Shown here: positions 529 through 48,541 of the stretch, piece after piece
Layout: each line of letters opens with the position of its first letter
Numbering within the stretch: the first letter of the stretch is position 1
Notes under the pieces: model-generated
The model's database searches: none
What the model saw: only the letters and a program-made list of their open reading frames with translations
What the model was told of the DNA's origin: nothing
From: Chitinophagales bacterium
GTDB taxonomy: Bacteria > Bacteroidota > Bacteroidia > Chitinophagales > Chitinophagaceae
DNA length: 49,691 nt
Reading direction: 5' to 3'
NCBI GenBank assembly: GCA_038257235.1
Contig: JBBSJN010000001.1
Span: 1-49,691 of the forward strand
Made by a program: the position numbers and the translations under genes

Positions 529-2508
529 TCAAAATGTAAAACGAATTCCACCACTACCATTAAAGCCAAGTGTATTAAAGCCACTTATTTCAGTGTATTT
601 GCTGCTGGTTATATTTCTAATGTCTGCAAATAGCTTCAGTTTATTTTTCAGCAAACCATACTCAGCATAAACATCCCACAGAACATAATTTTTCAAAGTG
701 GCGTTGACCGTTGCAAAAGTTGTATTGTCAAAGTAAGCATCTTTCCTTTTGCCTACACTCATAAAGTTGCTGCTGATATATAAGTTTTTACAAAGCTGGC
801 TGCCAATGTTGATCCCGATACTTGATTTTGGCCTTCGAAGTAAGTTATTATAAGTAGTGTCCTTCCCGTTTTTCTGTGTAGTTATCTCACCGGTTACATA
901 AGTATAAAATGCTTTGATTGTCGTTCCTTTATTGATCTTGTAACTTGTTTCCAACTCAAACCCGTTATCTTTTTGTTTGTCCTGATTGATGTATTGTGAT
1001 TGGAATGTAACGCTGTTGAAATAAAAGAAGATCACATCATTCACATTGCGGTTGAAAGTAACAGCTCTGCCGGTAAATTTATTATCAGCAGAAAAGTATT
1101 GTAAACCAGCTTCCGTTGTAATGCCTGCTTCAGGTTTTAAATCGGTGTTTCCGTATTCCGAAAAAAGCTGATACAACGAAGGTGTTCTGTAAGCTGATGA
1201 AATATTGGCAAATAATTTTAGTTTTTTATTTATGAAATAAGTAGGATTAATATTAAACACTGCATAACTTCCATATTCGGAATGGAAATTTACACGGCTT
1301 CCCAGCTCAAGATTGAAACCTGATGTAGAATTCCAGTTCATCGCACCATATATACCAAATTGATTTTGATGCAGGCTGTCTTTTGCATAATCAGATTTAT
1401 ATGGTCCAAAAAAGCCAACAGAAGAATATGACTGATCCGACACTGATGACCTGTAATCCACCCCGGCAGTCAGTTTTGTCTGGTTGCTCAATGGAATATG
1501 CATATATGCATCTGCAAAATGTTCTGCTCCTTTATAAATGCCCTGCGACCAAATATCATATCCGTTCCTGCTTTTTACAGAATCATCAGTATAAAGCCGG
1601 TTGATATTATTGTAGTTGTAAAGTATGTTTAGTTTTGATTTTCCAATATTGAATTCATTTCTTACCCCGGCCTGCCAACTTTTTTGTTGATAGGTATAAT
1701 CCAGTTCATCAGTAAAAGCTCCCTGATCAATATCACCTTTTATATTACTATAACGAAAGAATGGCTGTATATAAATTTTATCTGAAGGTTGTATGCCTAA
1801 CCCTAACTGAATACCAGTTTGCTGAAAACCATCTTTGTCTGTTGGAACAGAATTATTATTATCAATCGTTTCATTAATGCCTTTTGTGTTGTGAAAAGAT
1901 AATGCAGCATTATAATCAATCATCCCTGATTTTCCACTGACACCTGCATTGGTCCTGAAAGTTTTATTACTGCCATAGCTAAGTAGTGCATTGCCTGCTA
2001 TTGGCTTGGCAGAAGACCTTTTTGTTATGATATTGATAACTCCTGCAATTGCATCGCTTCCATACAATGTAGATTGACTTCCTTTTAATATTTCAATCCG
2101 TTCAATATTTGCTAAAGGCAGATTACGGATATCAAAATTGCTGCCGATACCAGATGGGTCATAAACCGGAATCCCATCAATAGTTATCAACGTATGCCCA
2201 ACCCCGGCACCACGTAAATAAACACTTTTATCTTTACCTGCATTACTGTTGGCTCCGCCAATAAACACTCCTGCCTGTTCTGTTAGTAATTGTGATAAAT
2301 CTTTGCCACCGCTTCTTTCAAGTTGCTCCCTGGTAATGATACTAACTACTTTACCAGTGAGTGATGTTTTGTTTGGATACTTGTTGGCTGTAAGAACCAC
2401 TTCATCTAATGAAGTACTGGTGGTGTCCCCGCCATTGCGGGGCTGACTCTGAGCTTTTAACTGACTGCTGATAATGACAGCAGCCACTACAAAAAAATGT
2501 TTTTTCAT
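529..2508 (-). CDS. btuB: TonB-dependent cobalamin receptor BtuB (start revised to MKKHFF)
   Basis: Signal peptide, TonB box LDEVVLTA, plug motif IERIEILKGSQSTLYGSDAIAGVINII, C-terminal F; downstream of a cobalamin riboswitch. Confidence 0.88.
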   Translation of the reverse strand: MKKHFFVVAAVIISSQLKAQSQPRNGGDTTSTSLDEVVLTANKYPNKTSLTGKVVSIITREQLERSGGKDLSQLLTEQAGVFIGGANSNAGKDKSVYLRGAGVGHTLITIDGIPVYDPSGIGSNFDIRNLPLANIERIEILKGSQSTLYGSDAIAGVINIITKRSSAKPIAGNALLSYGSNKTFRTNAGVSGKSGMIDYNAALSFHNTKGINETIDNNNSVPTDKDGFQQTGIQLGLGIQPSDKIYIQPFFRYSNIKGDIDQGAFTDELDYTYQQKSWQAGVRNEFNIGKSKLNILYNYNNINRLYTDDSVKSRNGYDIWSQGIYKGAEHFADAYMHIPLSNQTKLTAGVDYRSSVSDQSYSSVGFFGPYKSDYAKDSLHQNQFGIYGAMNWNSTSGFNLELGSRVNFHSEYGSYAVFNINPTYFINKKLKLFANISSAYRTPSLYQLFSEYGNTDLKPEAGITTEAGLQYFSADNKFTGRAVTFNRNVNDVIFFYFNSVTFQSQYINQDKQKDNGFELETSYKINKGTTIKAFYTYVTGEITTQKNGKDTTYNNLLRRPKSSIGINIGSQLCKNLYISSNFMSVGKRKDAYFDNTTFATVNATLKNYVLWDVYAEYGLLKNKLKLFADIRNITSSKYTEISGFNTLGFNGSGGIRFTF

Positions 2509-2625
2509 TATTAATGAATTTTTTGTTGTGACTGCTTCCGTGTAAATAAGAGATAGAAATATAAACGTCCTTCGACTTTTACATCTCATGCCTTTCACCC
2601 GAAAGCTGAATGTTGTTTGCTTGAT

Positions 2626-3879: not shown

Positions 3880-5988
3880 TTATTTAGTTGTTGATTTAAT
3901 CCATTGAAAAGAAATTCCCACATAATAATTTCTTGGCGGAGCAGCATTGTAAAAGCGGTTGGCAGCGGCATTGATATCGTTACCTAAGCTATAGGTTTCA
4001 TTCAACAGGTTATCAACTCCTGCATAAAAATTAAATTTGTATTTGCGCTGCAATGTTTTTTTCCATCCTGCTCTGCAGCCGAGCAGATAATATGGTTCTG
4101 CTGATGCAGTGTTTGCATCATTCAGAAAAATTTTTGAAGCCGAGTAGTAAGTAATATTTGAATAGATACCGTTCTTTAGTTGAACATCAGCTAAGGCTGA
4201 TAATATAGTAGCCGGAACGGATGGAACCGTTTTGCCGGAAAAATCATTAATGCCTTTTATAAAACTGCCGTATCGGAAATGGTTGTAAGTATGTGCAATT
4301 GTTATAGCCAAATAATCTAACAATGAAACGGAGGAAGCCTGGTGTGTATAATGAATCTGTGATTCAATCCCTTTTTGCTTCACATCTCCCGCATTCACAA
4401 AAAAATCAGCACCTGAAAGATCCCTTCGCTGTACCAGTGCATTATTCAGTTTGAAATGGAATCCGGTTACTTCAACATCAAACCTGTGTTTCCATCTTCC
4501 TAAACTATAGTTAAGTCCAAGTTCATAATTCCAGCCATATTCGGCTTCAAGATCTGTGCTGATAACACCTGTTGATGGCAATAACTCACCAACTGTAGGT
4601 GGAGAAAAGCCTCTTGATACAGTTGCTTTCAAGGCAAAATCATTTGCAAATAATTTTTTTAATGAAATCCGTGGAGCCAATTCATTCTTATACCTGCGGG
4701 TTTGTTTTAATACCGGATATTGATTCAGTCTGCTAAAATTTACTTTTGTTTTATTCAGACTGATGCCGGTATTGATAAACCAATTTTTATTAAGACTTAT
4801 ATCTCCCTGCACAAAAAAATTATAAGTAGTATAATCAATATCATCGTTTGTTTGAAGGGTGTCAGGGTTGCCATTCTTGTTTTTTGAAACCTGTGTATTG
4901 AAATATCCTTGTTGAAATTCGCTGCCGGCTACCAATTGCAATTCATTGGCATTTTCATCTTTCTTTTTATAAGTGAAAAAAGTACGTCCGCCAAAACCGG
5001 GTTCATTCCTTCTTTCATAATTACGAATGGCCGGATTTTTTATTTGTGAAAAAGCACCGTATAAAGTCGTTGAATTTTTGAACGAATTAGTGATGTGATA
5101 AACGTTTGTAAATCCTGCTGTAATATTTTTCTGATAAATGGCTGCTTTTGCGTTTACTGCCGAAGGGAAAGCACCTGCGGCTGGCCTCGCTGCTTTTGGA
5201 TCAGCAGTAAACTCGGCCAATGTTAATGCGCCGGGAGTTTCATAAAATAAGTCGGTAAATAAAACAGCTGCTGATAGTTGCTGTTTGTCTGATAGTTTTA
5301 GTTGCGATTGCCAGGAAAAATTATCTCTCCGCATTTTAGTTTGTAGTCTATAGCCATCAGTTTCATTGTGGGCATAGGTAATCTGATTTTTATTCTCCTG
5401 CCCGACAACGTCATTCAGGCGGGCTTTTTTGCCAAATGCAACAGAAGTAAAGATGTTTTGCAGATTGTAGCTGCCTGTAACATATTCAAGACTTGCTCCG
5501 GGTTTCCAGGTATCGAAATTATTGACGAGGATTAAACCGCCGGTACCGGCTCCGTACATACTTCCTGCTGGTCCTTTAAAAATTTCGATGGAAGAAAAAT
5601 TATTCCATGCCAGTTGGTTAAAATAAGTATTGCCGCCCGGATCCGTTAATGGAATATTGTTCCAATAAACTTTTACGTTTCTTACGCCAAATGGGGAACG
5701 GAGAGAACTGCCTCTTATATTAATACGATAGCTACCGGGGCTTCTCTCTTCCATTCTTACACCGGCTATTGTATTAAATCCATTTACCAATGATGTTTTG
5801 TTATTCCGGTCACCATTATTGAATTCTATGATTTTTACCGTAGCAGTAGAATTCCTTATGCTCATGTTTTGCTCAAAAGCTTTTATAGTTACCTCGTCAA
5901 GAATTTTCGTAGAATCATTTATTGTTTCCTGGCTATAGCTTATAGAAATAATAAGAGAAAAGAAAACAAAAAGTATAATTTTTTTCAT
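3880..5988 (-). CDS. TonB-dependent receptor (YncD-like)
   Basis: LDEVTIKA TonB box; MEERSPGSYRINIRGSSLRSPFGVRNVK plug; YNAAPPRNYYVG C-terminus. Confidence 0.85.
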   Translation of the reverse strand: MKKIILFVFFSLIISISYSQETINDSTKILDEVTIKAFEQNMSIRNSTATVKIIEFNNGDRNNKTSLVNGFNTIAGVRMEERSPGSYRINIRGSSLRSPFGVRNVKVYWNNIPLTDPGGNTYFNQLAWNNFSSIEIFKGPAGSMYGAGTGGLILVNNFDTWKPGASLEYVTGSYNLQNIFTSVAFGKKARLNDVVGQENKNQITYAHNETDGYRLQTKMRRDNFSWQSQLKLSDKQQLSAAVLFTDLFYETPGALTLAEFTADPKAARPAAGAFPSAVNAKAAIYQKNITAGFTNVYHITNSFKNSTTLYGAFSQIKNPAIRNYERRNEPGFGGRTFFTYKKKDENANELQLVAGSEFQQGYFNTQVSKNKNGNPDTLQTNDDIDYTTYNFFVQGDISLNKNWFINTGISLNKTKVNFSRLNQYPVLKQTRRYKNELAPRISLKKLFANDFALKATVSRGFSPPTVGELLPSTGVISTDLEAEYGWNYELGLNYSLGRWKHRFDVEVTGFHFKLNNALVQRRDLSGADFFVNAGDVKQKGIESQIHYTHQASSVSLLDYLAITIAHTYNHFRYGSFIKGINDFSGKTVPSVPATILSALADVQLKNGIYSNITYYSASKIFLNDANTASAEPYYLLGCRAGWKKTLQRKYKFNFYAGVDNLLNETYSLGNDINAAANRFYNAAPPRNYYVGISFQWIKSTTK
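5397..5423 (-). repeat. Family B mini-palindrome (27 nt), in frame within the TonB-dependent receptor
   Basis: Minus strand CCCGCCTGAATGACGTTGTCGGGCAGG, 19/27 identical to the 35740-35766 copy. Confidence 0.75.
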
Positions 5989-35739: not shown

Positions 35740-35766
35740 CCCGCCCGGCCAAGCCGTTCGGACGGG
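35740..35766 (-). repeat. Family B mini-palindrome (27 nt) in host CCTCCGAAG|GAGGGACTT (35731-35775)
   Basis: Minus strand CCCGTCCGAACGGCTTGGCCGGGCGGG; removal restores the hairpin CCTCC-GAA-GGAGG. Confidence 0.85.
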
Positions 35767-38653: not shown

Positions 38654-38679
38654 CCCGTCCGAACGGTTGGCCGGGCGGA
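38654..38679 (+). repeat. Family B mini-palindrome (26 nt)
   Basis: CCCGTCCGAACGGTTGGCCGGGCGGA, one deletion and one substitution relative to the 35740-35766 copy. Confidence 0.85.
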
Positions 38680-47462: not shown

Positions 47463-47552
47463 TGAGCCACATAGGCAGATAGTGCACAGTAGGAATTCAC
47501 ACATAGAATTTGCTCTATGTGGTAGACTATGTTACTAATGTTATGTGGTTCA
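47463..47552. repeat. Imperfect palindrome of about 90 bp built from CATAG/CTATG units
   Basis: TGAGCCACATAG...CACATAG-N8-CTATGTG...TATGTGGTTCA. Confidence 0.6.
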
Positions 47553-47593
47553 ATACGGATATTGGAGAGTTGAAAACATTATCTTGCAAGCCA

Positions 47594-48541
47594 ATGAAAG
47601 CAACAGTTTATAAATCCACCGGAAGCTGGTATATTATTAAAGATGAGAACGACAAATTCTGGAATGCCCGGATGAAAGGGGTGATGAAGATTGATGATAT
47701 TACTTCTACCAATCCTGTGGCAGTCGGTGATGATGTGGAATTTGAAATAGAGAATGAACTGGATGGTACTGCCATGATTGATGAGATTCATCGACGTAAC
47801 AATTATATTAACCGGCAATCGCCACGCAATAAATACCAGCATCATATTGTAGCTGCCAATCTTGACCAGTCAATGCTGGTGGCAACGCTGAAAGAACCTA
47901 AAACTTCACAAGGGTTTATTGACCGTTTTCTGGTTGCTTCCGAAATGTATCATGTGAAACCATTTATTGTTTTAAATAAATCTGATTTATACAAAGCAAA
48001 AGAAATGCAAAAATATCAGGACTGGAAAGCAATGTATGAAGCAGTTGGTTACAAAGTATTTTTAGTAAGTGCTGAAAAAAAGGAGGGTGTTGAAGGGGTT
48101 TTGGAAATGCTGAAAAATAAAACAACACTCATCAGCGGACATAGTGGTGTAGGCAAATCATCTTTTTTGAATGTCATATTTCCTGATAAAATTTTAAAGA
48201 CCCAGGAAGTAAGTGGCTGGAGTGGCAAAGGGCAGCATACAACTACGTTTGCTGAAATGTATGATCTTCCCCTGCCTGCCGGACAGGCAGGTTTTGGAGG
48301 ACGCATTATTGATACACCTGGAATGAGGGAATTTGGCTTGGTGGATATTGACAAACAGGAAGTATCTCATTATTTTCCTGAAATGAGAGATAGATTAAAT
48401 AATTGCCAGTTCAATAATTGCCTCCATTTTAGTGAACCTGGCTGTGCTATTAAAGAAGCAACTGTTAATGGTGAAATACATGAAAACCGATATGTGAGTT
48501 ATGTGAATATTATGGAAAGTATTGAGCAAAGAAGTTATTAA
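47594..48541 (+). CDS. rsgA: Small ribosomal subunit-dependent GTPase RsgA (start revised to MKATVYKSTGSWY)
   Basis: VAVGD.V, AANLD, NKSD (G4), GHSGVGKSS (G1), G.HTTT, DTPG, CQFNNCLH..EPGC zinc finger. Confidence 0.96.
   Translation: MKATVYKSTGSWYIIKDENDKFWNARMKGVMKIDDITSTNPVAVGDDVEFEIENELDGTAMIDEIHRRNNYINRQSPRNKYQHHIVAANLDQSMLVATLKEPKTSQGFIDRFLVASEMYHVKPFIVLNKSDLYKAKEMQKYQDWKAMYEAVGYKVFLVSAEKKEGVEGVLEMLKNKTTLISGHSGVGKSSFLNVIFPDKILKTQEVSGWSGKGQHTTTFAEMYDLPLPAGQAGFGGRIIDTPGMREFGLVDIDKQEVSHYFPEMRDRLNNCQFNNCLHFSEPGCAIKEATVNGEIHENRYVSYVNIMESIEQRSY
48271..48291 (+). repeat. Family A mini-palindrome (21 nt), in frame in rsgA
   Basis: CCTGCCTGCCGGACAGGCAGG; removal gives MYDLPFGGRIIDTPG. Confidence 0.9.

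What the first reader, a model, noticed from the sequence alone, without database searches (positions are those of the whole stretch)
5397..5423. 27-nt family B element adds 9 residues to a TonB-dependent receptor
The protein reads FGKK-ARLNDVVGQ-ENKNQ. Removing the element joins G|AG to give FGKKENKNQ in frame. The insert lies between predicted early barrel strands, a plausible tolerant turn.
Basis: partly seen in the sequence, partly recalled or inferred. Interest (0 to 1): 0.7.

Follow-up and report, generated by a model that had tools for sequence, protein, structure and literature searches.

The report
Nine-codon hairpin repeatedly hits one site
A 27-base DNA hairpin repeat, present in about a hundred copies in this bacterium, sits in frame inside an outer-membrane transporter gene and adds nine amino acids to a predicted surface turn; scattered relatives carry versions of it at exactly the same codon, likely through repeated, scar-free insertions by an enzyme that is still unidentified.

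Summary
Confirmed. Bases 5397-5423 are one of about 110 genomic copies of a 26-29-nt imperfect palindrome. This copy adds ARLNDVVGQ (residues 189-197) to an intact TonB-dependent receptor.

Orthologs show an exact gap: 108 of 120 close ones, and none of 147 distant ones carries the insert. There is no target duplication. The insert lies in the predicted turn between barrel strands 2 and 3.

The element is 25/27 identical between genes whose silent sites match only 28-40%. etfA shows the same one-site pattern (28 of 121).

Best reading: a scar-free mobile mini-element with a weak target motif, filtered by frame and fold tolerance. That only partly explains the hot spot, and no mobilising enzyme was identified.

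It works like Rickettsia palindromic elements and intragenic REPs but lacks their tested hallmarks. This scan noted related in-frame Bacteroidota palindromes on other DNA.

The parts
5397..5423 (-). 27-nt imperfect palindromic element, subfamily called B1 here (gene strand CCCGCCTGAATGAC-NNN-GTCGGGCAGG); boundary can slide one base to 5398-5424
   Evidence: filled/empty DNA comparison
5398..5424 (-). nine inserted codons, ARLNDVVGQ = residues 189-197, in the turn between barrel strands 2 and 3 (first periplasmic turn by the usual strand alternation of these barrels, inferred)
3880..5988 (-). host gene: intact 702-aa TonB-dependent receptor (plug 44-151, barrel 165-661); nearest solved folds PqqU and YncD, below the PqqU family cut-off; substrate unknown
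5424..5427 (-). left flank of the target on the gene strand (AAAG); fits the weak family preference A at -3, G/C at -1
5392..5396 (-). right flank of the target on the gene strand (AGAAT); not a copy of the left flank, so no target-site duplication
35740..35766 (+). second 27-nt family member in the window (B2-type variant), nested in another G/C repeat
38654..38679 (-). 26-nt degenerate member of the same family

Best explanation
The 27 bases are a copy of a dispersed Bacteroidota hairpin repeat that sits in frame, without a target duplication, in a predicted surface turn of an intact TonB-dependent receptor, and that likely landed at this codon several times independently in different lineages through a trans-acting, likely single-strand cut-and-join enzyme. 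Shown: repeat family, exact 27-nt size, empty ancestral state, no duplication, open frame, scattered filled alleles. Inferred model: the element is non-coding selfish DNA with a conserved, asymmetric 9-bp stem that an enzyme encoded elsewhere recognises. It is joined bluntly after a weak A-(A/T)-(G/C) motif. Copies that fall in genes survive only if they are 27 nt long, in a stop-free frame and in a tolerant loop; they are then translated, inherited and decay like ordinary codons, and can be hit again (nested copy in P0002). An HUH/Y1 tyrosine transposase is my preferred enzyme class by analogy to IS200/IS605 and REP systems (about 0.35), but no call identifies it. Motif, frame and tolerance explain only part of why one site per gene takes all the hits.
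For: Empty state ancestral: 0 of 147 distant homologs filled; 108 of 120 close ones empty. Recurrence: 12 of 120 filled at the same codon with 7 different peptides, at least 10 changes on a tree built without the insert columns, several filled rows sister to empty rows with starred support. A DNA tree of 19 orthologs needs 4 changes for 6 filled alleles, and the AU test rejects one clade (p 1e-54). Element-only movement: the element is 25/27 identical between the window and L032, L033, L034 while 30-nt flanks are 20-24/30 and fourfold silent sites are 84/208, 83/205, 85/214 (44/155 for L042). The window's sister gene L031 carries a different subfamily plus a nested second copy. G063 and G064 hold only 4 and 3 pattern matches, and one of each is this site. 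With an empty, 65%-identical query, 6 of 120 are filled at this site and none elsewhere. etfA: 28 of 121 filled, all at one site, at least 12 changes. Frame filter: 22 of 81 27-nt copies but 0 of 25 copies of 26, 28 or 29 nt interrupt a long ORF when removed (p 0.0016); 49 of 70 coding copies use one frame. Conserved asymmetry in 155 variants: B1 has C.A at pair 3/25 and T.G at 7/21, B2 has C.A at 5/23 and G.T at 9/19. Same 27-mer in 13 of 300 genomes across the phylum; head-to-tail copies in G176.
Against: No enzyme found: no gene-containing element with these ends was seen in this genome; 0 of 30 Y1 loci and 0 of 30 RAYT-like loci carry a 27-mer; the RAYT-like query found nothing in 4 of 16 element-bearing relatives, including complete G059 and copy-rich G062. 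Y1_Tnp is in 12 of 12 element-bearing but also 29 of 48 other relatives. The target motif is only about 4 bits and ranks this site 12th-14th of about 690 in-frame positions (1.3-1.9% of predicted rate), and an equally ranked, length-variable turn near residue 344-347 is never hit. Empty sites show no hairpin signal. The inserted loop variant matches other copies in the same genome only in G062 (3 of 5), not in G000 or G063. A second AU test (5 filled rows) returned p 0.355 despite a 462-unit likelihood loss, and label shuffles on that small tree were as low in 66 of 500. The lone 27-mer folds no better than shuffles (z about -1). Trees cannot tell gain from loss.
Confidence: 0.74

Rival explanations
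1. One or a few old insertions at this codon, followed by many precise 27-nt excisions, with the surviving copies kept near consensus by conversion or by DNA-level selection.
For: Parsimony counts do not give direction. Five of the filled alleles lie in one 19-row clade and four (P0012, 13, 14, 16) in one poorly resolved clade, so some may share an origin. Degenerate inserts (NGTDESSGQ, AVQDDKDGK) show that some are old.
Against: Distant homologs are all empty. Old and near-consensus inserts coexist at the site, and sister genes carry different subfamilies. Silent sites are near saturation while the element is 25/27 identical. Only one base of repeat flanks the element, too little for ordinary slippage deletion (own knowledge). 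No deletion allele appeared in four laid runs, which are contigs and cannot show absence.
Confidence: 0.12
2. A filled allele spreads between species by homologous recombination of a short gene segment, so the apparent hot spot is one event copied sideways.
For: ARLNDAVGQ recurs in five separate tips of the protein tree plus L042; L032 and L034 have identical elements.
Against: Flanks next to the element are no more alike among filled alleles (20-24 of 30) than between filled and empty ones (mostly 20-28 of 30). Two subfamilies and a nested form occupy the site. The same loop variant occurs at unrelated sites in G062, G031 and G013.
Confidence: 0.06
3. The insert is kept because the peptide or the mRNA hairpin is useful (for example tuning TonB contact, folding or mRNA stability), so selection concentrates it at this turn.
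For: All hits fall at one periplasmic-side turn, which the DNA motif alone does not predict.
Against: 90% of close homologs lack it; the peptide differs between lineages and decays; the same peptides occur in unrelated enzymes such as DapA, EtfA, RNase R and MnmA; most copies are intergenic or nested in other repeats.
Confidence: 0.05
4. The element is an intron-like unit removed from the RNA, or an assembly artefact.
For: It can fold back on itself, and family members interrupt tRNA-Arg-like fragments.
Against: No frame-shifting copy lies in a long ORF (0 of 25), as expected if copies are translated. No Rfam match. Five other assemblies carry a filled allele and a contig of run X1 bridges it.
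Confidence: 0.03

Closest known systems
Rickettsia palindromic elements (RPE; as summarised in PMC10969869 and PMC3733652, passages read)
   Same: Dispersed palindromic repeat, many copies in frame in unrelated, apparently functional genes, translated as a recurring peptide; no known own transposase.
   Different: 27 nt against about 150 nt for RPEs as first reported; no NCBIfam palindromic-element model hit the protein; free-living Bacteroidota; repeated use of one codon per gene across lineages was not in the passages read.
GTAG- and CGTC-tagged REPs, including intragenic ones (Di Nocera et al. 2013, PMC3733652; passages and first quarter of Results read)
   Same: 20-40-bp stem-loops, tens to hundreds of copies, patchy across species, some inside ORFs in loops.
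   Different: No terminal GTAG or CGTC tag; 9-bp imperfect stem with a 9-nt loop. That paper reports REPs in same-function genes mostly at different sites (one case, recB, 'about the same site'), whereas here orthologs are hit at the identical codon.
REPtrons / TnpA-REP (RAYT) and IS200/IS605 Y1 transposases (PMC6006769, PMC8266576; passages read)
   Same: Strand-asymmetric hairpin with conserved mismatches, no target duplication, short motif left of the insertion; subclass 2.4 REPs insert in frame into their own transposase genes, and Bacteroidetes subclass 2.6 genes are flanked by 'atypical' structures. In this genome one RAYT-like gene has a B1 copy at its 5' end.
   Different: No consistent flanking of Y1 or RAYT genes by this element (0 of 60 loci), no fixed tetranucleotide target, and the RAYT-like query was not found in a complete, copy-rich genome.
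MITEs
   Same: Non-autonomous, inverted ends; longer 40-43-nt members share the ends around an A/T-rich filler.
   Different: No target-site duplication, far below the 70-300 bp given in PMC3733652, and no autonomous partner with these ends seen.

Membership tests
RPE-like intragenic palindromic element (works like) | dispersed multi-copy palindromic repeat | tested here: met
   112 copies of 26-29 nt; 0 in shuffles; paired stem positions in 155 variants
RPE-like intragenic palindromic element (works like) | in-frame insertion in unrelated intact genes, absent from orthologs | tested here: met
RPE-like intragenic palindromic element (works like) | insert lies in a surface loop and leaves the fold intact | tested here: met
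   predicted only: loop 188-197 in a model with mean pLDDT 87, TM 0.83 to PqqU
RPE (Rickettsia families proper) | sequence and size (about 150 nt) of an RPE family | tested here: not met
   27 nt; no such NCBIfam model listed for P0001 or P0002 at E up to 1, though nine residues may be too short to score
GTAG/CGTC REP | terminal GTAG or CGTC tetranucleotide | tested here: not met
   flank and body profiles show no such tag at either end
GTAG/CGTC REP | 20-40-nt stem-loop in many copies | tested here: met
REPtron / RAYT-mobilised REP | cognate Y1 transposase gene flanked by the repeat | tested here: inconclusive
   one RAYT-like gene in this genome has a B1 copy at its start, but 0 of 60 Y1/RAYT loci examined carry the 27-mer
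REPtron / RAYT-mobilised REP | binding and cleavage of the single-stranded hairpin by the transposase | not testable with these tools
   needs biochemistry
MITE | target-site duplication | tested here: not met
   filled minus empty = exactly 27 nt with at most one ambiguous base
MITE | autonomous element sharing the ends | tested here: inconclusive
   none seen in this 90%-complete, 382-contig assembly
TonB-dependent receptor (host protein) | plug plus beta-barrel domains | tested here: met
   PF07715 and PF00593 over cut-off; fold matches

The most novel reading that the evidence does not exclude
Bacteroidota carry an undescribed, phylum-wide class of 18-43-nt mobile hairpins, the commonest exactly nine codons long, that an unknown enzyme writes into DNA without a scar and with a site choice sharper than its short motif explains. 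The same codons of core genes are filled, refilled and perhaps emptied again and again, giving reversible peptide-tag alleles and a natural map of insertion-tolerant sites.
Probability: 0.3. Interest if true: 0.8.

Novelty: new variant of a known kind. Interest (0 to 1): 0.58.

Why it matters
How REP- and RPE-type palindromes spread is an open question, largely because clean filled/empty pairs are rare. This family gives many: exact 27-nt boundaries, no duplication, two subfamilies, nested and tandem copies, and the same codon filled in separate lineages. That makes the mechanism testable (defined donor, defined target, candidate enzymes) and warns that shared insertions of this kind are not reliable phylogenetic markers. 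If the enzyme were found, it would be a scar-free in-frame tagging activity. The receptor itself is ordinary.

Tried and rejected
Single-sequence AlphaFold failed (pLDDT 28); the 96-sequence alignment worked. First metagenome pattern scan found nothing; the second found one filled allele. Search for a gene-carrying element with the same ends: none seen. Y1/RAYT as a dedicated partner: flanking not seen in 60 loci, co-occurrence uninformative or against. Hairpin structure at empty targets: no signal, 96 real against 288 decoy windows. Longer target motif: widening from 8 to 28 positions did not improve ranking. Rfam: 0 matches. Sequencing runs: no RNA holder listed; contigs only, so excision alleles could not be tested. 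Removing elements did not restore any full tRNA among 112 sites. Viral contigs: 2 exact matches, both outside long ORFs, no mobility gene recognised by eye. DUF559, GIY-YIG, GxxExxY and four-helix-bundle genes were considered as mobilisers but not tested. Literature searches gave no description of this family; PMC3372372 and PMC4898810 (passages) held nothing relevant. The repeat consensus figures of PMC3733652 (Fig. 2) and PMC6006769 (Fig. 7) and their supplements were not seen and could bear on novelty.

Full report
Observation. The 27 bases at 5397-5423 lie inside a 702-codon minus-strand ORF (3880-5988) that reads FGKK-ARLNDVVGQ-ENKNQ. The protein has Plug and TonB-barrel domains. Its fold is closest to PqqU and YncD, but it scores far below the PqqU family cut-off, so the substrate is unknown. 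Homolog names point to Chitinophagaceae.

A repeat family. The window's genome (3.2 Mb, 382 contigs, 37.6% GC) has 24 copies within 6 mismatches. Under a two-subfamily consensus there are 112 copies: 85 of 27 nt, 18 of 28, 7 of 26 and 2 of 29. A looser pattern gives 134 matches against 0 in three shuffles. Relatives with the same ends measure 20-21 nt (85 copies) and 40-43 nt (12 copies). In 155 distinct 27-nt variants the first nine bases pair with the last nine except at fixed, subfamily-specific positions: C.A at 3/25 and T.G at 7/21 in B1 (this copy), C.A at 5/23 and G.T at 9/19 in B2. The lone 27-mer is not unusually stable (z about -1). The pattern is found in 12 of 60 drawn relatives and in 13 of 300 genomes across the phylum, with zero control matches; palindromic copies can be counted on both strands in those tallies. 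Many copies are nested in other G/C hairpin repeats, and G176 has head-to-tail copies.

It is an insertion. Of 120 close homologs (67-100% identity, query included) 108 have a clean gap. Of 150 distant representatives, 147 cover the site; none has the insert and 124 have exactly the empty length. At DNA level, filled minus empty is 27 nt with one ambiguous G and no duplication. The AlphaFold model from a 96-sequence alignment (mean pLDDT 87, pTM 0.88) places 188-197 between strands 176-187 and 198-210; the ten-residue block at the insert is locally less confident (68). By the usual alternation of short and long loops this is the first periplasmic turn (inference).

The same codon is hit repeatedly. 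Twelve of the 120 homologs are filled, all at this position, with seven different peptides, including an 18-residue nested one; no element-like insert occurs elsewhere in the alignment. A tree built without the insert columns needs at least 10 changes (FastTree). With an empty query at 65% identity, 6 of 120 are filled, again only here (95 of these proteins overlap the first set). DNA for five other filled alleles shows the element 25/27 identical to the window's in L032, L033 and L034, while fourfold silent sites agree at only 84/208, 83/205 and 85/214, and 44/155 for L042. The sister gene L031 has a B2-like element with a second copy nested inside. On a 19-row DNA tree the six filled alleles need 4 changes and the AU test rejects one clade (p 1e-54). 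A second test on five of them gave an anomalous p of 0.355 at a larger likelihood loss, and 66 of 500 label shuffles were as low, so that tree shows scatter rather than clustering. Some filled alleles may share an origin, and trees do not give direction.

This is general. In-frame copies sit in ORFs with Pfam matches to DHDPS, ETF alpha, RNase R, tRNA methyltransferase, GcpE, pseudouridine synthase, GH3 and GH20 families, among others. For etfA, 28 of 121 sequences are filled, all at one site, with at least 12 changes; this count is inflated by a filled query. Of 216 distinct 27-nt contexts, 70 are coding and 49 of those use the same frame. Of this genome's copies, 22 of 81 27-mers but 0 of 25 other lengths interrupt a long ORF (p 0.0016), which points to translation rather than splicing.

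Target choice. Ninety-nine non-nested, non-orthologous sites give a weak motif: A at -3 (77%), G/C at -1 (93%), G/C at +1 (79%), C-poor at +2 and +3; about 4 bits after bias. Left out in turn, 38 coding sites rank at a median 6.5, the top 1.6% of in-frame positions, so motif plus frame explains much of the clustering in general. For this receptor the site ranks only 12th-14th with 1.3-1.9% of the predicted rate. Several higher sites are in strands, the plug or outer loops, but a similarly ranked turn near 344-347 varies in length in 45 of 120 homologs and never holds the element. This excess is unexplained. Empty sites show no hairpin signal.

Enzyme. No gene-carrying element with these ends was seen. 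The genome has seven Y1_Tnp matches; of six scanned, three score as IS200/IS605-type and three best match the REP-associated transposase model, below cut-off on partial sequences. One of the latter has a B1 copy at its 5' end. Against a dedicated link: 0 of 30 and 0 of 30 further loci carry the 27-mer, the RAYT-like query found nothing in 4 of 16 element-bearing relatives including complete G059, and Y1_Tnp is common regardless (12 of 12 against 29 of 48). I prefer an HUH/Y1 enzyme only by analogy: these act on single-stranded hairpins, discriminate strands by mismatches and cut next to short motifs (PMC6006769, PMC8266576, passages read); that they leave no duplication is from my own knowledge.

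Comparison and novelty. It behaves like Rickettsia palindromic elements (PMC10969869, passages) and intragenic REPs (PMC3733652, passages and the first quarter of Results) but has neither their size nor the GTAG/CGTC tag, and no MITE-type duplication. Seven library searches found no description of this family; figures and supplements of the two survey papers were not seen, and most subscription journals are not searched. Earlier notes of this scan describe related in-frame palindromes in other Bacteroidota, one with a similarly reused loop; I did not verify them and do not count them as support.

Verdict. It is a new variant of a known kind, whose notable feature is exact, repeated use of one codon per gene by a scar-free nine-codon element with no identified enzyme. 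Interest 0.58.

Noticed in passing
window 48271-48291 (+), inside ORF 47510-48538: A 21-nt relative of the element sits in frame (LPAGQAG) in an RsgA-family GTPase gene; 20-nt relatives lie at 2717, 36481, 38537 and 46378.
   Followed up: partly
G000 C131:223, C21:24883; L191:1501; L195:1501 and 1811: Family members interrupt the D-loop region of tRNA-Arg(CCT)-like fragments in three genomes of different families; in L191 and L195 each fragment precedes a short ORF that looks GIY-YIG-like by eye, and an intact tRNA-Arg(CCT) lies nearby.
   Followed up: partly
G000 C108:21-483 and C126:2575-2814: RAYT-like genes themselves carry in-frame mini-element insertions (for example ARLTGRAG in C126), recalling the in-frame REPs in subclass 2.4 transposase genes of PMC6006769.
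   Followed up: partly
G000 C6:15503, C73:7221, C93:1188, C133:1375, C236:2183: 40-43-nt members with the same ends around an A/T-rich filler, often next to a 26-28-nt copy in a fixed composite arrangement.
   Followed up: no
L100 (G027) versus G000 C51:13290-14531: An ORF that looks like RibD by eye has a B1 insert in G027 and a different insertion of similar length at the same position in this genome, plus two 20-21-nt elements elsewhere in the gene.
   Followed up: no
G059 (complete genome; loci L093, L270-L292): Here the element is nested almost only inside other hairpin repeats, with flanks that do not fit the A at -3 preference, suggesting target choice differs between hosts.
   Followed up: partly
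window 529-2598 (-): A second, intact TonB-dependent receptor-like ORF lies 1.3 kb from the studied gene (identified by eye, not scanned).
   Followed up: no
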